Shown: one piece after another, positions 10,359-16,608 of the stretch
Numbering within the stretch: the first letter of the stretch is position 1
Layout: the number at the start of each line of letters is the position of its first letter
Virus record (IMG/VR): IMGVR_UViG_3300018080_008418
Length of the DNA stretch: 17,475 nt
From: a virus
Reading direction: 5' to 3' (one strand)
The notes under the pieces: model-generated
Database searches by the model: none
Told to the model about the DNA's origin: nothing
What the model saw: only the letters and a program-made list of their open reading frames with translations
Translations under genes and position numbers: made by a program

Positions 10359-10575
10359 CTAACTATCGCCCCACGGCGAGTCCCCAATGGGGAGCGAGTA
10401 ATCGTCAGCCGTGAATTACCGTGAGGATGGGAGAGATGTTGACAAGCCGAACAGATAGACGTAGCTGGAAATGCAGCCACCATATTATTTGGTGCCACGC
10501 TACCAGTGCGTCCTGATCGACTTGCGGCATGCAGCCGGTGAAGGACACCAAACCTGAGCCGGAAGAGATGATTAG

Positions 10576-10611
10576 AAGCCCTCGGCTCAGGTGAGCCGAG
10601 GGCTTTTTTTT
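10576..10611 (+). terminator. Rho-independent terminator.
   Basis: GAAGCCCTCGGCTCA-ggtg-AGCCGAGGGCTT is followed by T8. Confidence 0.85.
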
Positions 10612-10676
10612 GTGAAAGGAGCAGTAGGTGAACGACACCGAATGTAAAATCTGAACTTGAGGGAAAAATCGTCGCC

Positions 10677-10862
10677 GTGTATCCTGACCAAGGCGTGGTC
10701 ATGGTGAAGGACGATAAGAAGCTCGCCGATTGGCGACTTGACATCCTTGAGTACGAAGACCTAGAAGCCCTTGGCTTGGAGCCTGACTTTTGGTGGGAAG
10801 GGCAAAGAGTCAAAGTAAATTTCAAAAATGGAGAACCATCACATGTACAACTCGGAGCATGA
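10677..10862 (+). CDS. Small hypothetical protein; start uncertain (GTG 10677, or ATG 10701).
   Basis: The + ORF ends in an ATGA overlap with the next gene. No strong RBS for either candidate start. Confidence 0.35.
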   Translation: MYPDQGVVMVKDDKKLADWRLDILEYEDLEALGLEPDFWWEGQRVKVNFKNGEPSHVQLGA

Positions 10863-11182
10863 CTGACAACGTTACATTCCCCGACTGGCTGCCGCCCTAT
10901 TTGGAGCGGAGCGAGATCTTGGGGAAGCTTGCCAACTGGTTAAAGGAAGGCAAGTCGGACGAAGACATCGCCAGGATGTGGAATTCAACAGCAGAGAAAG
11001 TTCATGATCTGCGAACCCACTGGAGCATGATACGAGACGGCGAGTGCCCGCATTGCGGAGACAAGAGATACGATTGGGACAAGAAAGAATGCCCTAATCG
11101 ACGATGCATAACAAATTGGTATATTCCGCCGCATTGGAGAGAAGGCGGTAAGAAGAAAGGGAAGAAAGGGAAGAAAAAATGA
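10859..11182 (+). CDS. Hypothetical Cys-containing protein of 107 aa with a Lys-rich tail.
   Basis: ATG 10859 is in an ATGA junction. The motif 'CPHCGDKRYDWDKKECPNRRC' suggests Zn binding. Confidence 0.5.
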   Translation: MTDNVTFPDWLPPYLERSEILGKLANWLKEGKSDEDIARMWNSTAEKVHDLRTHWSMIRDGECPHCGDKRYDWDKKECPNRRCITNWYIPPHWREGGKKKGKKGKKK

Positions 11183-11226
11183 TGATGCTCAACAGGTTGA
11201 AACGCAGGGTTACGAATGGCTACACG

Positions 11227-11299
11227 CCCTCGTAACTCAGTTGGTAGAGTTGGGAGCTTTTAACTCTCGGGTCGTAGGTTCGAGTCCTACCGGGGGCAC
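11227..11299 (+). tRNA. tRNA-Lys (TTT).
   Basis: Acceptor GCCCTCG pairs with CGGGGGC; D-arm ACTC-AGTTGGTA-GAGT; anticodon arm GGGAG-CTTTTAA-CTCTC; T-arm GTAGG-TTCGAGT-CCTAC; discriminator A. Confidence 0.8.
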
Positions 11300-11355: not shown

Positions 11356-11802
11356 ATGAGTAACCCAAAGGCTAAAGGTGAAAAAGGACAAAAGGTAGTA
11401 ATAGGAGAATTGGCAAAGCATGACATTGAGGTGTTGATTCCGCTGAGCGATAACCTGCCATACGATTTGGTAATTGATTGGCAAGGCAGGCTGTTGAAGT
11501 GCCAAGTGAAGTCAAGCGACTATCGGCCTTCTAAAGCAAGTGGAATGGTGGAGTTCAGTCTGAAAACAAACAACTGGTACAAGAAAACCAGCAAGACGTA
11601 TTCAGCGGATGAGATAGATGTGATGCTTTTGTGTGACTTGCGTGATTGGAGTGTGTATGTGCTAGGTCCAAAGGATTTCGATGGACGGTCATCATTCGCC
11701 ATGCGTGACGAAGCAGCCAAGAACGGCCAAAAGAAAGGCGTCAATCTTCGTGAAGACTACTTGCTGTCAGAGGCCACCTTGACGAGAAAGCTGAGCCTAT
11801 AG
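11356..11802 (+). CDS. Putative PD-(D/E)xK-fold nuclease (Hjc/restriction-endonuclease-like core) of 148 aa.
   Basis: A GGAGG RBS lies 6 nt before ATG 11356. 'GEKGQKVVIGELAKHDIEVLIPLSDNLPYDLVIDWQGRLLKCQVKSS' matches the E...D...(E/Q)xK architecture of Hjc-like nucleases. The gene lies between tRNA-Lys and the interrupted tRNA. Confidence 0.35.
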   Translation: MSNPKAKGEKGQKVVIGELAKHDIEVLIPLSDNLPYDLVIDWQGRLLKCQVKSSDYRPSKASGMVEFSLKTNNWYKKTSKTYSADEIDVMLLCDLRDWSVYVLGPKDFDGRSSFAMRDEAAKNGQKKGVNLREDYLLSEATLTRKLSL

Positions 11803-11886
11803 CTCAATTGGTAGAGCATCGGACTTACAGGCCAGACCGCCTACAAGTTAATCCGAAGGTTTCCGGTTCGATCCCGGATGGGCTCA
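11793..11886 (+). tRNA. tRNA-Asn (GTT)-like, 94 nt, with a 21-nt insertion between nt 33 and 34. It would read Val-TAC instead if the insertion were placed at 37/38.
   Basis: A canonical body: acceptor GAGCCTA pairs with TGGGCTC; U8 A9; D-arm GCTC-AATTGGTA-GAGC; anticodon stem TCGGA pairs with TCCGA; variable loop AGGTT; T-arm TCCGG-TTCGATC-CCGGA. The anticodon loop is 28 nt, CT[TACAGGCCAGACCGCCTACAA]GTTAA. The insert can form its own AGGC/GCCT hairpin. Confidence 0.6.
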
Positions 11887-12158: not shown

Positions 12159-12572
12159 ATGAAAGAAGTGAAAGGACCGCTTTATCAAGCGAAGGGAGTG
12201 TTGAGGTATTCGGAGGGCTTCAGGTTGGTCGTTGAGGTCGATCAGGAGTTGGCGAATTACTACCGGTCGATGATACCGAAGTGGAAGGTGGTCAACCGGC
12301 AGATGTACCCAGCACACGTGACCGTCGTAAGGGGGCAAAAGGAAACGCCGCCTAATACAGAGCCATGGGAGAGATACCAAGGCGAGTTGGTTGAATACAC
12401 GTACAGCCCAATCGTGCATGAAGGCACGGTGTACTACTGGTTGAATGTGTTTTCAACAAGGTTAGAAGAGGTGAGGCGTGAACTGGGTCTTCCAGTTCAT
12501 AGCGAGTACACCTTGCCGCCCGGTGGGTTTACTAGGTGCTTTCACATGACGTTGGGGAACAAGAAAGAATGA
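12159..12572 (+). CDS. 2H phosphoesterase superfamily protein (LigT / cyclic-phosphodiesterase / Acb1-like) of 137 aa.
   Basis: Two H-x-T-x motifs flanked by hydrophobic residues, 'PAHVTVVRG' and 'CFHMTLGN', about 77 aa apart. This is the defining signature of the 2H family. The gene sits inside the tRNA cluster. Confidence 0.5.
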   Translation: MKEVKGPLYQAKGVLRYSEGFRLVVEVDQELANYYRSMIPKWKVVNRQMYPAHVTVVRGQKETPPNTEPWERYQGELVEYTYSPIVHEGTVYYWLNVFSTRLEEVRRELGLPVHSEYTLPPGGFTRCFHMTLGNKKE

Positions 12573-15988: not shown

Positions 15989-16062
15989 GGTGGGCGTAGC
16001 TCAGTTGGTAGAGCGCTGGATTGTGGTTCCAGTCGTCGCCGGTTCAAGTCCGGTCGCCCACC
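15989..16062 (+). tRNA. tRNA-His (GTG), canonical bacterial type with encoded G-1 and C73.
   Basis: G-1 followed by acceptor GTGGGCG pairing with CGCCCAC; D-arm GCTC-AGTTGGTA-GAGC; anticodon arm CTGGA-TTGTGGT-TCCAG; T-arm GCCGG-TTCAAGT-CCGGT; discriminator C. Confidence 0.8.
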
Positions 16063-16065
16063 CCT

Positions 16066-16140
16066 GTGGCCGTCCCATGCTGGTTTTGGGGCCCTGGCCG
16101 TGAACCAGGGTTACGGCGGGTTCAATTCCCCCCGGTCACC
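16066..16140 (+). pseudogene. Degenerate tRNA-like gene, possibly a pseudo-tRNA-His.
   Basis: Acceptor GTGGCCG pairs with CGGTCAC and the discriminator is C. The anticodon arm CCCTGG-CCGTGAA-CCAGGG has a 6-bp stem and C33. The T-stem has a mismatch and nucleotide 9 is missing. Confidence 0.3.
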
Positions 16141-16145
16141 TTGAT

Positions 16146-16219
16146 GCCCCTATGGCTGAATGGAACTAGGCACCTCGCTTCTAACGAGGATCATGTGGGT
16201 TCGAGTCCTACTGGGGGTA
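16146..16219 (+). tRNA. tRNA-Arg (TCT).
   Basis: Acceptor GCCCCTA pairs with TGGGGGT through G1·U72 and U6·G67 wobbles; a 3-bp D-stem; anticodon arm CCTCG-CTTCTAA-CGAGG; T-arm GTGGG-TTCGAGT-CCTAC; discriminator A. Confidence 0.65.
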
Positions 16220-16276: not shown

Positions 16277-16348
16277 AGGTCCGTGGTGTAATTGGTAGCA
16301 CGTTGCTCTCCAAAAGCAAAAGTCCGGGTTCAAGTCCTGGCGGGCCTG
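16277..16348 (+). tRNA. tRNA-Trp (CCA).
   Basis: Acceptor AGGTCCG pairs with CGGGCCT; D-arm GTGT-AATTGGTA-GCAC; anticodon arm TTGCT-CTCCAAA-AGCAA; T-arm CCGGG-TTCAAGT-CCTGG; discriminator G. Confidence 0.7.
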
Positions 16349-16414: not shown

Positions 16415-16508
16415 AGGTGCCTAGCTCAATTGGTAGAGCACTGGTCTTTTGCCCAAACAGGCAACAAGCCAAAACCAGCGGTTGGGGGTTCGATTCCCTC
16501 GGCACCTG
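16415..16508 (+). tRNA. tRNA-Trp (CCA)-like, 94 nt, with a 21-nt insertion between nt 33 and 34.
   Basis: Acceptor AGGTGCC pairs with GGCACCT; D-arm GCTC-AATTGGTA-GAGC, Trp-like; anticodon stem CTGGT pairs with ACCAG; T-arm GGGGG-TTCGATT-CCCTC; discriminator G. The loop is CT[TTTGCCCAAACAGGCAACAAG]CCAAA. Removing the insert leaves CTCCAAA, identical to the Trp loop at 16308-16314. The insert forms a TTGCC/GGCAA hairpin. Confidence 0.6.
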
Positions 16509-16513
16509 CTTGA

Positions 16514-16608
16514 GCGCCCGTAGCTCAATGGATAGAGCAACGGACTAGAGGTCAGGCTGCCTCACAAATCTAATCCGTAGGTTGCAAGTTCGAGTCTTGC
16601 CGGGCGTG
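16514..16608 (+). tRNA. tRNA-Arg (TCT)-like, 95 nt, with a 22-nt insertion between nt 33 and 34.
   Basis: Acceptor GCGCCCG pairs with CGGGCGT; D-arm GCTC-AATGGATA-GAGC, matching the layout of Arg-UCU tRNAs; anticodon stem ACGGA pairs with TCCGT; T-arm GCAAG-TTCGAGT-CTTGC; discriminator G. The loop is CT[AGAGGTCAGGCTGCCTCACAAA]TCTAA. Removing the insert leaves CTTCTAA, identical to the loop of the Arg tRNA at 16146. Confidence 0.6.

What the first reader, a model, noticed from the sequence alone, without database searches (positions are those of the whole stretch)
11793..11886. tRNA with a 21-nt insertion exactly between anticodon-loop positions 33 and 34 (Asn-GUU-like)
Every helix of the cloverleaf is canonical: a 7-bp acceptor stem, U8 A9, a GCTC/GAGC D-stem with GG in the loop, a 5-bp anticodon stem and a TTCGATC T-loop. 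Only the anticodon loop is abnormal, at 28 nt instead of 7. Deleting 21 nt after U33 restores CTGTTAA, an Asn loop. The alternative placement at 37/38 restores CTTACAA, a Val loop. Known bacterial tRNA introns are group I ribozymes longer than 200 nt, and 21-nt bulge-helix-bulge-type introns are an archaeal and eukaryotic feature. The insert ends in CTACAA and can fold into its own small hairpin. The same design recurs twice 4.6 kb downstream.
Basis: seen in the sequence. Interest (0 to 1): 0.85.

Follow-up and report, generated by a model that had tools for sequence, protein, structure and literature searches.

The report
Short hairpin introns in phage tRNAs
Three tRNA genes of this large bacteriophage carry a 21-22-base hairpin insert in the anticodon loop that belongs to a conserved, apparently undescribed family found in many bacterial viruses, matches neither known type of tRNA intron, and almost certainly has to be cut out to make a working tRNA.

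Summary
tRNA 11793-11886 is a full-length cloverleaf with a 28-nt anticodon loop, and two more such genes lie at 16415-16508 and 16514-16608. The placement and identity are probably wrong. Comparative evidence puts the 21-nt insert between positions 34 and 35, which gives Lys(UUU), not Asn(GUU).

I found 22 further members in independent viral and metagenomic contigs, covering 11 anticodons. All share one build: 1 nt, a 4-5-bp stem, a 6-nt loop (about YAGACA) and a 4-5-nt tail ending Y-R-A-N. Total length is 21 or 22 nt.
- The stem covaries strongly: 92% paired against 56% in shuffles.
- The tRNA bodies are perfectly maintained: 315 of 315 stem cells paired.
- The insert sits at 32/33, 33/34 or 34/35, but always in the same register relative to its own hairpin.
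- It fails the bulge-helix-bulge test, which true giant-virus introns in the same scans pass.
- It is far too short for a group I intron, and was absent from 185,579 cellular genomes for the D-arm pattern scanned.

Best reading: a new class of enzyme-excised tRNA intron in bacteriophages, recognised through its own hairpin. Splicing itself and the enzymes responsible are inferred, not shown.

The parts
11793..11886 (+). Interrupted tRNA 'A', most likely tRNA-Lys(UUU). Exon 1 is 11793-11826, the insert is 11827-11847, exon 2 is 11848-11886.
   Evidence: Rfam tRNA 62.7 bits. Arm parse. Lys rather than Asn from the junction rule, the 3' motif, A73 and body type.
11827..11847 (+). 21-nt insert of A: N1 A (11827), stem frame CAGGC (11828-11832, inner 4 bp pair), loop CAGACC (11833-11838), stem frame GCCTA (11839-11843), tail CAAG (11844-11847).
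   Evidence: Hairpin kept in the MFE fold. Frame. The covariance model built from 25 introns hits exactly 11827-11847 (this sequence was in the training set).
16415..16508 (+). Interrupted tRNA 'B', tRNA-Trp(CCA). Insert at 16448-16468 (21 nt, between positions 33 and 34): T TTGCC CAAACA GGCAA CAAG.
   Evidence: Rfam 58.3 bits. The masked body is closest to Trp tRNAs. It has A1-U72 and G73, and only the 33/34 register restores CUCCAAA.
16514..16608 (+). Interrupted tRNA 'C', tRNA-Arg(UCU). Insert at 16547-16568 (22 nt, between positions 33 and 34): A GAGGT CAGGCT GCCTC ACAAA.
   Evidence: Rfam 58.9 bits. The masked body is closest to Arg tRNAs. Only the 33/34 register restores CUUCUAA.
11226..11298 (+). 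Intact tRNA-Lys(UUU), uninterrupted isoacceptor twin of A.
16146..16219 (+). Intact tRNA-Arg(UCU), uninterrupted twin of C.
16277..16348 (+). Intact tRNA-Trp(CCA), uninterrupted twin of B. Its sequence is very different from B, so it is not a recent duplicate.
11356..11802 (+). Free-standing PD-(D/E)XK endonuclease gene of the I-Ssp6803I family (148 aa; GGAGG 7 nt before the ATG). It lies between the intact and the interrupted tRNA-Lys, and its last 10 nt including the stop codon overlap the 5' end of tRNA A. It is a possible partner at the DNA level and is not shown to act on RNA.
   Evidence: PF11645 E 1.5e-22. PDB 2OST E 3.3e-7. Homologues sit directly after tRNA-Lys(UUU) in L005 and L008, and a distant copy sits in the L249 tRNA cluster.
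12159..12572 (+). 2H phosphoesterase (137 aa; motifs HVTV and HMTL). It is a possible RNA end-healing enzyme, but an Acb1-like anti-defence phosphodiesterase is equally possible. Its link to the inserts is weak.

Best explanation
The three long tRNA genes are intron-containing genes of a previously undescribed class, which I call hairpin introns. Each is transcribed as a pre-tRNA whose anticodon loop holds a 21-22-nt cassette: one unpaired nucleotide, a 4-5-bp stem, a 6-nt loop of roughly YAGACA, and a 4-5-nt tail ending Y-R-A-N. An endonuclease, phage or host and not identified, recognises the cassette itself. It cuts 1 nt before the stem frame and just after the Y-R-A-N tail, wherever the cassette sits in the loop (32/33, 33/34 or 34/35). 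An RNA ligase then joins the halves into a normal 7-nt anticodon loop, possibly after end-healing by enzymes of the T4-like RNA repair set found in relatives. The products here are Lys(UUU), Trp(CCA) and Arg(UCU).

Shown: the architecture, its conservation and covariation, the intact tRNA bodies, and the failure to fit known intron classes.
Inferred: that excision occurs, the exact cut sites, the enzymes, and the biological purpose. Candidate purposes are shielding the palindromic anticodon-arm DNA from tRNA-targeting homing endonucleases such as the adjacent PD-(D/E)XK enzyme, or keeping a precursor pool that host anticodon nucleases cannot attack.
For: (1) There are 25 non-identical members in independent contigs (3 in the window; L026, L249, L307 from IMG/VR; the rest from metagenomes), with GC from 36 to 57% and 11 different anticodons. 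All have inserts of 21 nt (8 members) or 22 nt (17 members).
(2) The hairpin covaries. 92% of cells are paired against 56% in shuffles (0/500 reach it) and 31-41% in slid controls. The inner 4 pairs are paired in 25/25 members, each using 3-4 pair types. 44 cells are compensatory against 10 expected. G-U pairs occur on the sense strand.
(3) One mechanical rule, 5' junction 6 nt before the hairpin loop and removal of loop length minus 7 nt, yields Y32, U33 and R37 in 25/25 members. For the six 'CA...' members only 1-2 registers can do this.
(4) The anticodon given by the rule matches the anticodon-masked tRNA body: Trp, Arg, Met, Asp, Lys.
(5) A Y-R-A-N motif is anchored to the predicted 3' junction: 67/75 matches against 19-38/75 when shifted.
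(6) The cloverleaf stems are 100% paired (315/315 cells) with 96 compensatory cells, so the genes are under selection as tRNAs.
(7) In L277, L288, L249 and L307 the interrupted gene is the only visible copy of its anticodon in the tRNA cluster.
(8) A single phage carries inserts in different registers (window: 34/35 and 33/34; L277; L303), so recognition cannot be measured from the tRNA body.
(9) Member loci show Shine-Dalgarno enrichment and strand bias typical of phages, and the window encodes sigma-70-type factors.
(10) Relatives carry RNA ligase PF09414, a HAD hydrolase, a sirtuin and 2H next to each other. This matches the phage tRNA repair modules described in PMC9503650.
Against: There are no RNA data, so excision has never been observed. 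No candidate endonuclease was found that tracks the inserts. The PD-(D/E)XK gene is absent from most member loci as far as they are sequenced. The 2H gene occurs in six loci without inserts and may be an Acb1-type anti-CBASS enzyme. No ligase was demonstrated in any contig that carries an insert (inconclusive). For members whose loop starts with CT, the loop-restoration criterion is weak on its own, because 62% of all registers pass it. The hairpin frames were chosen by maximising pairing, which inflates the pairing percentage somewhat. The distances from the stem to the cuts are not perfectly constant, since the tail is 4 or 5 nt. In the window each interrupted gene has an intact twin, so here the interrupted copies are not strictly needed for decoding. 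The literature check is limited to open-access papers and bioRxiv.
Confidence: 0.58

Rival explanations
1. The insert works mainly at the DNA level. The anticodon arm of a tRNA gene is an inverted repeat and an ideal target for a dimeric or tetrameric PD-(D/E)XK or HNH homing endonuclease. A 21-22-bp insert between the two half-sites makes the phage's own copy immune, while the free-standing endonuclease next door cuts uninterrupted alleles in competing phages. This would be 'collaborative homing' of a nuclease gene and a nuclease-less intron. It explains why the inserts exist, does not exclude RNA-level excision, and in fact requires it.
For: The 148-aa PD-(D/E)XK gene belongs to the family of I-Ssp6803I (PF11645 E 1.5e-22; PDB 2OST E 3.3e-7). 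From my own knowledge, that enzyme cuts the anticodon-loop region of an intron-less tRNA-fMet gene. The gene lies between an intact and an interrupted tRNA-Lys(UUU) and overlaps the latter by 10 nt. Homologues sit directly after tRNA-Lys(UUU) in L005 and L008. HNH endonuclease genes abut interrupted tRNAs in L298 and L303 and recur in L279 and L302. The variable register (32/33 to 34/35) is what a 'split the site' function would tolerate.
Against: Immunity alone needs neither a covarying hairpin, nor a conserved loop and tail motif, nor a fixed 21-22-nt length. B and C have no recognisable nuclease gene next to them. L249's PD-(D/E)XK copy abuts a normal tRNA-Pro, 9 kb from the interrupted gene. 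Homing endonucleases are common in phage tRNA clusters in any case.
Confidence: 0.3
2. The inserts are never removed. The RNAs are tRNA-like molecules with another role, such as decoys or sponges for host anticodon nucleases, synthetases or modification enzymes, or scaffolds that display a protein-binding hairpin.
For: In the window and in L026 every interrupted gene has an intact isoacceptor twin, so decoding does not depend on it. No splicing enzyme was identified. The hairpin loop has a conserved sequence that could be a protein-binding site.
Against: A decoy for an anticodon nuclease should present a normal anticodon loop, and 21 extra nt destroy it. Without excision there is no reason for the flanks always to sum to a canonical 7-nt loop with U33 and R37, nor for the split anticodon to match the body identity. 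In four other phages the interrupted gene is the only visible copy of its anticodon.
Confidence: 0.14
3. They are ordinary bulge-helix-bulge introns of the archaeal/eukaryotic type, placed at non-canonical positions and cut by an EndA/TSEN-type enzyme.
For: The length is typical of short archaeal introns. The 5' junction lies 1 nt before a helix, as in the 5' half of a BHB. Non-canonical positions are known in Crenarchaeota (PMC3241643). PD-(D/E)XK is the fold superfamily that also contains EndA (my own knowledge).
Against: In the formal test the central 4-bp helix pairs 0-3 of 4 and the flanking helices are missing in all but one member; L275a reaches 4/4 but with no inner helix and a non-canonical product. 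No register gives a BHB together with a canonical loop. True BHB introns found in the same scans (L278, L291) score 4/4 plus a 4-5-bp inner helix. The tail is 4-5 nt where a BHB needs 6. Member loci look bacterial (SD motifs, sigma-70 factors), whereas the BHB controls sit on NCLDV-like contigs. In cellular genomes the same pattern found only archaeal 37/38 BHB introns.
Confidence: 0.03
4. They are pseudogenes: tRNA genes inactivated by insertion of a small palindromic mobile element.
For: The insert is a small palindrome-containing unit that occurs several times per genome at slightly different positions in the loop.
Against: The stems differ in sequence between copies and covary, so they are not recent copies of one element. 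The cloverleaf stems are 100% paired with many compensatory changes. The motif occurs nowhere else in the 17.5-kb window. The inserts are found only in anticodon loops, in a register that restores the loop.
Confidence: 0.04
5. Sub-rival on identity only: tRNA A is Asn(GUU) with the insert at 33/34.
For: Arithmetically valid: CT|21 nt|GTTAA. The anticodon stem TCGGA/TCCGA is identical to that of the clear Asn-type members L277c and L281. B and C use 33/34.
Against: This register would place the 5' junction 2 nt before the stem frame, unlike all 24 other members, and would end the insert in ACAA, violating Y(-4) and R(-3). A73 and the AGGTT variable loop group A with the interrupted Lys tRNAs L277b, L288a and L249, not with the TTGTC/T73 Asn group. 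In the nearest-neighbour body comparison the top-12 tally is Lys 5, Asn 0, though that test separates the two poorly.
Confidence: 0.22

Closest known systems
Bulge-helix-bulge (BHB) tRNA introns of archaea, eukaryotes and giant viruses, cut by EndA/TSEN and joined by RtcB or Trl1
   Same: A short intron (11-30 nt is common) in the anticodon loop, presumably removed by protein enzymes in a cut-and-rejoin pathway. The 5' junction lies one nucleotide before an intron-internal helix. Several tRNAs per genome are affected.
   Different: There is no second bulge and no 4-bp central helix, so the defining motif fails. The tail is 4-5 nt instead of 6. The class has a conserved hairpin-loop sequence and a Y-R-A-N 3' motif of its own. 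The register floats over 32/33-34/35 within one genome. The hosts are bacterial viruses, where no EndA-type enzyme is known.
Group I self-splicing introns in bacterial, plastid and phage tRNA genes (Leu-UAA, fMet, Ile, Arg, Asn, Asp)
   Same: They interrupt the anticodon loop of bacterial-type tRNA genes at several positions, including 34/35. They are often associated with homing endonucleases, and I-Ssp6803I, the structural relative of the neighbouring gene, is encoded in one (my own knowledge).
   Different: Group I introns are more than 200 nt long with a P1-P9 catalytic core. These inserts are 21-22 nt, and Rfam finds no group I model in the window. They cannot self-splice by that chemistry.
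T4 anticodon-nuclease and repair circuit (PrrC cleavage of tRNA-Lys 5' of the wobble base; repair by Pnkp and Rnl1) and the 2H/KptA/ligase RNA repair modules of large phages (PMC9503650)
   Same: Breaks at 33/34 in a phage-infected cell are healed and sealed by phage enzymes. Relatives of this phage carry RNA ligase, HAD, sirtuin and 2H genes together on T4-type (Gp23) contigs. The same enzymes could perform the joining step.
   Different: That system repairs damage to an uninterrupted tRNA. Here 21-22 nt are encoded in the gene and two cuts are needed. No link between these enzymes and the inserts has been shown.
Collaborative homing: a nuclease-less intron plus an adjacent free-standing homing endonuclease (cyanophage psbA intron with F-CphI; my own knowledge), and T4 SegB in the tRNA gene cluster (PMC13096335)
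   Same: A free-standing endonuclease gene lies directly beside an interrupted gene whose uninterrupted form would be its natural target, inside a phage tRNA cluster.
   Different: In the known case the intron is a self-splicing group I intron. The target of the endonuclease here is unknown. Two of the three interrupted genes have no nuclease neighbour.
Intervening sequences of bacterial 23S rRNA, removed by RNase III without re-ligation
   Same: Short extra hairpins inserted in a conserved bacterial structural RNA and removed after transcription by a host nuclease.
   Different: Those stems are long enough for RNase III and the pieces are not rejoined. A 4-5-bp stem is too short for RNase III, and a tRNA nicked in its anticodon loop does not decode, so ligation would be required.

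Membership tests
tRNA (Rfam RF00005) | Full cloverleaf scoring above the gathering threshold (29 bits) | tested here: met
   62.7, 58.3 and 58.9 bits, model positions 1-71. 100% stem pairing across 15 members.
BHB (archaeal/eukaryotic) tRNA intron | Two 3-nt bulges on opposite strands, separated by a 4-bp helix, with both splice sites in the bulges | tested here: not met
   At the junctions that restore a 7-nt loop the central helix pairs 1/4 (A), 3/4 (B) and 1/4 (C). No register across the 23 remaining members gives H = 4/4 with an inner helix and a canonical loop. Positive controls L278 and L291 score 4/4 with an inner helix of 4-5 bp.
BHB (archaeal/eukaryotic) tRNA intron | An EndA/TSEN-type splicing endonuclease available in the virus or host | not testable with these tools
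   None was seen among 140 neighbour ORFs or in the window. Only partial genomes were available and the host is unknown.
Group I intron | A catalytic core of paired regions P1-P9, more than about 200 nt | tested here: not met
   The insert is 21-22 nt. There is no Intron_gpI hit in the window at the gathering threshold.
Hairpin-intron class proposed here | A 21-22-nt insert in the anticodon loop made of N1, a 4-5-bp stem, a 6-nt loop and a 4-5-nt tail ending Y-R-A-N, whose removal restores Y32-U33-NNN-R37-N38 | tested here: met
   A, B and C all fit. The class is defined by 25 members.
PD-(D/E)XK homing endonuclease, I-Ssp6803I family (PF11645) | Sequence membership above the Pfam cut-off and similarity to the solved enzyme | tested here: met
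   80.6 bits against a cut-off of 26.1. 2OST E 3.3e-7 over residues 15-102, including the D...QVK motif region.
PD-(D/E)XK homing endonuclease, I-Ssp6803I family (PF11645) | Site-specific cleavage of an intron-less tRNA gene, with immunity of the interrupted allele | not testable with these tools
   Needs a biochemical assay. Only synteny with tRNA-Lys(UUU) was observed.
2H phosphoesterase superfamily | Two H-x-T/S-x motifs on an internally duplicated beta-beta-alpha-beta fold | tested here: met
2H phosphoesterase superfamily | Action on 2',3'-cyclic phosphate RNA ends (tRNA healing) rather than on cyclic-nucleotide signals (Acb1 type) | tested here: inconclusive

The most novel reading that the evidence does not exclude
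Bacteriophages possess a third mechanistic class of tRNA intron, besides self-splicing group I and BHB introns. It is a 21-22-nt cassette that carries its own recognition hairpin, can sit at any of at least three positions in the anticodon loop, and is excised and re-ligated by a so far unknown bacterial or phage enzyme pair. This would be the first protein-dependent tRNA splicing pathway in the bacterial world. It may have evolved as protection of tRNA genes or tRNAs in the conflict with homing endonucleases and anticodon nucleases.
Probability: 0.5. Interest if true: 0.92.

Novelty: categorically new. Interest (0 to 1): 0.86.

Why it matters
Textbook knowledge holds that tRNA introns in bacteria and their viruses are group I ribozymes, and that short enzyme-spliced introns belong to archaea and eukaryotes. 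A conserved, covarying 21-22-nt intron family in phage tRNAs would overturn that division. It would imply an undiscovered RNA endonuclease specificity, and possibly a physiological substrate for the long-puzzling bacterial and phage RNA ligase, 2H and Tpt1 repair enzymes. It would also add a new layer to the phage-host contest over tRNAs.

There is a practical side. Standard annotation miscalls these genes: ARAGORN gave Val, an undetermined type and nothing at all for the three genes in this window. tRNA repertoires of large phages are therefore being misread. The compact cassette, if autonomous, could also become a small programmable RNA-excision tag.

Tried and rejected
1. Megablast and blastn of the region against 50,697 phage records found no usable match.
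2. Exact-protein lookup with the longest ORF failed. It worked after moving the start to 11356, but returned only near-identical contigs of 15.6 kb or less.
3. The DNA pattern built on the shared hairpin core GGTCAGGC was too loose. It returned 120 chance hits and no tRNA, and wasted one scan.
4. Broader D-arm patterns in IMG/VR mostly returned eukaryote-type Tyr, Ile and Lys tRNAs with 37/38 introns from giant viruses.
5. I first placed L278, L291, L033 and L079 in the class as '32/33' members. I removed them once they proved to be perfect BHB introns on NCLDV-like contigs.
6. I first accepted 'always 33/34' and Asn for tRNA A. I dropped this after L307 (Met-CAU) and L288c (Asp-GUC) required 34/35.
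7. Nearest-neighbour classification of tRNA bodies cannot separate Lys from Asn, because the control L277c failed.
8. 2H as a specific splicing partner is rejected: only 1 of 7 viral 2H loci has an insert, and the fold is equally close to Acb1.
9. PD-(D/E)XK as the RNA-cutting enzyme has no co-occurrence support.
10. The search for the PF09414 ligase in insert-bearing contigs was inconclusive, since the method depends on exact peptide words.
11. Checked by eye or reasoning and set aside: RNase III (the stem is too short), RNase P-like cleavage (N1 is unpaired, mostly A opposite A), and hammerhead-like motifs (wrong order of elements).
12. The promoter and terminator scan was not above chance.
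13. The small ORFs next to B and C have no family hits.
14. Six literature searches found no description of such inserts.
Full report
**1. What is in the window**

The region 10.2-16.6 kb is a phage tRNA cluster on the + strand. ARAGORN finds 11 tRNA genes and Rfam finds 10.

Three Rfam hits are about 20 nt too long: 11793-11886 (62.7 bits), 16415-16508 (58.3 bits) and 16514-16608 (58.9 bits). Each covers the whole tRNA model, with the extra bases in the anticodon loop.

The anticodon loops are 28, 28 and 29 nt.

The same DNA occurs in independent assemblies from other samples at 99.8-100% identity with identical inserts, so this is not an assembly artefact.

The surrounding genes point to a large phage of bacteria:
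- two sigma-70-type factors, a ThiF/JAB pair, and an AAA ATPase plus DUF2201 pair;
- best matches in a 595-kb uncultured phage, Burkholderia phage BCSR5 and Ralstonia phage RSL1;
- relatives carrying a T4-type Gp23 capsid gene.

**2. The insert is a family, not a curiosity**

Pattern scans anchored on the D-arm and T-loop mostly returned eukaryote-type Tyr, Ile and Lys tRNAs with 37/38 introns from giant viruses. They also found two phage contigs with window-like inserts: L026 (90 kb) and L249 (532 kb).

The single metagenome scan, plus intron-mode ARAGORN on the loci it recovered, added many more. There were often several per contig: L277 has three, L288 four and L303 at least three.

L307 lies on a 259-kb contig and is a true relative of the window phage: ATPase 49%, DUF2201 60% and 2H 58% identical, in the same gene order. 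It carries one insert as well.

After removing false members (section 4), 25 distinct inserts remain. Their loci range from 36 to 57% GC and they cover 11 anticodons: Asn, Lys-UUU, Lys-CUU, Trp, Arg-UCU, Phe, Gln, Asp, Leu, Gly and Met.

**3. Architecture and junction rule**

Every insert is 21 nt (8 cases) or 22 nt (17 cases). Each consists of one nucleotide (A 15, T 8, C 2), a five-position stem frame, a six-nucleotide loop, the complementary frame, and a tail of 4-5 nt.

On the 25 aligned inserts:
- 92% of stem cells are paired, against 56% in column shuffles (0 of 500 reach it) and 31-41% when the partner is slid by 1-3 columns.
- The inner four pairs are paired in all 25 sequences, with three or four pair types each.
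- There are 44 double-sided changes against 10 expected.
- The fifth, outer pair forms in 15 of 25.
- A few G-U pairs indicate that the sense strand, meaning the RNA, is what folds.
- The loop is roughly Y-W-R-A-C-W, consensus YAGACA.

A single mechanical rule works for all members: put the 5' junction one nucleotide before the stem frame and remove loop length minus 7 nt. This gives a loop with C/U32, U33 and a purine at 37 in 25 of 25.

Taken alone this is only moderately discriminating for inserts whose loop begins with CT, because 62% of all registers pass the same minimal test. For the six 'CA...' members only one or two registers pass, and the rule picks one of them.

Two independent checks support the rule:
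- The anticodon it produces agrees with the identity of the anticodon-masked tRNA body: B is closest to Trp tRNAs, C to Arg, L307 to Met, L288c to Asp and L249 to Lys.
- A Y-R-A-N motif appears at the predicted 3' junction, with 67 of 75 matches against 19-38 of 75 when the junction is shifted by one or two bases. The motif stays anchored to the junction whether the tail is 4 or 5 nt.

The insert therefore sits between 32/33 (6 cases), 33/34 (10 cases) or 34/35 (9 cases). Different registers occur within one phage: the window, L277 and L303. Whatever recognises it must read the cassette, not measure from the tRNA body.

**4. What it is not**

I coded the canonical bulge-helix-bulge geometry and ran it on every member in every register.

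L278 and L291 (with the identical copies L033, L079, L292 and L300) pass perfectly: central helix UCAG/CUGA 4/4, inner helix 4-5 bp, product CTGTTAA. They sit on contigs with 37/38 Tyr introns and no Shine-Dalgarno enrichment, and an NCLDV capsid gene turned up among the loci scanned, most probably on L278. They are genuine BHB introns of giant viruses. I removed them from the class, and they serve as positive controls.

All three window genes and the other 22 members fail the test.

A group I intron is excluded by size and by the absence of any Rfam hit.

A scan of one genome from each of 185,579 bacterial and archaeal species, using a D-arm/T-loop pattern tuned to 28-29-nt loops, returned 18 hits. 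The real tRNAs among them were archaeal genes with 37/38 BHB introns. There was no bacterial genome with the hairpin cassette.

Member loci show 2-5-fold Shine-Dalgarno enrichment and strong strand bias; the BHB controls do not.

A covariance model of the cassette finds only the three tRNA sites in the window, with everything else at chance level, so this is not a dispersed repeat.

**5. Not pseudogenes**

Across 15 divergent interrupted genes, all 315 cells of the acceptor, D, anticodon and T stems form standard pairs, against 70% in shuffles. There are 96 compensatory cells.

In L277, L288, L249 and L307 the interrupted gene is the only visible copy of its anticodon in the cluster.

In the window, and in L026, each interrupted gene instead has an intact isoacceptor twin of quite different sequence: Lys-UUU at 11226, Arg-UCU at 16146 and Trp-CCA at 16277.

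**6. Identity of the tRNA in the finding**

Several lines favour Lys(UUU) with the insert at 11827-11847 between positions 34 and 35:
- the family rule;
- the tail motif: CAAG fits Y-R-A-N, whereas ACAA does not;
- the A73 discriminator: 23 of 26 normal viral Lys tRNAs have A73, against 5 of 19 Asn;
- the AGGTT variable loop, shared with the interrupted Lys tRNAs L277b, L288a and L249, in contrast to the TTGTC/T73 Asn group;
- ARAGORN's intron mode, which also calls Lys.

I put Lys at about 0.75 and Asn at about 0.22. The Val (37/38) reading has no support.

**7. Neighbouring enzymes**

*PD-(D/E)XK endonuclease.* The ORF ending inside tRNA A (11356-11802) is a PD-(D/E)XK endonuclease of family PF11645 and resembles PDB 2OST. 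From my own knowledge, 2OST is the tRNA-fMet intron homing endonuclease I-Ssp6803I.
- It lies between the intact and the interrupted tRNA-Lys.
- Homologues in L005 and L008 also follow a tRNA-Lys(UUU).
- A distant copy in L249 abuts a normal tRNA-Pro.
- HNH endonuclease genes abut interrupted tRNAs in L298 and L303.

This suggests, but does not show, that the inserts also protect the palindromic anticodon-arm DNA from such nucleases.

- It recurs beside interrupted tRNAs in L277, L282 and L307.
- It also occurs in six loci without them, and it is structurally as close to phage Acb1 as to RNA-end enzymes.
- In relatives it lies within a few kb of an RNA ligase (PF09414), a HAD hydrolase, a sirtuin and a NUDIX enzyme. 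This matches the phage tRNA repair modules described in PMC9503650.

Such enzymes could do the joining step, but I could not show a ligase in any insert-bearing contig.

**8. Conclusion and limits**

The comparative data strongly indicate selection for three things: a defined hairpin cassette, a length that restores a 7-nt loop, and intact tRNA bodies. The simplest explanation is a new class of excised intron.

Excision itself, the cut chemistry, the enzymes and the biological purpose are all inferred. Six literature searches of open-access papers and bioRxiv found nothing comparable, but subscription journals were not covered.

Noticed in passing
window 11356-11802 and 11793-11802; L005 9889-10492; L008 1335-2179: The PD-(D/E)XK homing-endonuclease gene always sits directly downstream of a tRNA-Lys(UUU) gene, in three unrelated contigs. 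In the window its stop codon TAG lies inside the acceptor stem of the next tRNA, a 10-nt overlap.
   Followed up: partly
L041, L069, L093, L102, L114, L122, L126, L251 (tRNA-Lys-UUU); L307 8492-8573 (Lys) and 10668-10751 (Trp): Contigs of 77-420 kb, most over 200 kb, carry Lys and Trp tRNAs, normally class I, with a long stem-loop variable arm of about 13-20 nt. This is a different and also unusual tRNA elaboration.
   Followed up: no
L032 7139-7206: A Trp-like tRNA body (A1-U72) with anticodon CUA and a long variable arm. It is a probable amber suppressor in a 76-kb viral contig.
   Followed up: no
L276, L283, L285, L297 (metagenome contigs): Asn-type tRNAs with a 23-24-nt insert that contains a 6-7-bp hairpin followed by GCTGAAG, placed before a complete CTGTTAA. 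The junction is ambiguous because CT is repeated. They fit neither the BHB motif nor the 6-nt-loop cassette and may be yet another type.
   Followed up: partly
L318 7723-7793, L319 6565-6636 (Acidobacteriota MAGs): tRNA-Cys-like genes whose anticodon loop reads CTGCA + about 21 nt + AA, in bacterial genome bins. No hairpin cassette is evident. This could be a further kind of short insert in a cellular genome, or a mis-binned virus.
   Followed up: no
window 16066-16140: ARAGORN calls a second tRNA-His(GTG) immediately after the genuine one at 15990-16062, but Rfam does not reach threshold there. It may be a degenerate or atypical tRNA-like element.
   Followed up: no
window 3227-3241 and 11152-11160 versus L001: The only differences between the window and an independent assembly of the same phage over 15.3 kb are two in-frame indels of 15 and 9 nt. 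The second lies in a lysine-rich GAAGAAAGG repeat at the end of ORF 10790-11182.
   Followed up: partly
window 3-713, 5702-6280, 1538-2053, 2208-2852: There are two sigma-70-like factors (regions 2 and 4) and an adjacent JAB deubiquitinase-like plus ThiF/E1-like pair. The latter is a ubiquitin-like conjugation module in a phage genome.
   Followed up: no
L303 1208-1301 and 2888-2989: Two further over-long tRNA-like genes (loops of 29 and 33 nt) in the same AT-rich contig that I could not resolve with the junction rule. One has a class II-type D-arm but a short variable region.
   Followed up: no
L288 4822-6672: A full-length HSP70/DnaK homologue (Pfam E 6e-206), together with a clamp-loader-like ATPase, on a contig with phage-like Shine-Dalgarno usage and four interrupted tRNAs.
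   Followed up: partly
window 10359-10620: There is a non-coding stretch of about 250 nt after tRNA-Met. It ends in a strong terminator-like hairpin (10574-10607, 15 bp, followed by a T-run). No Rfam family matches it.
   Followed up: no
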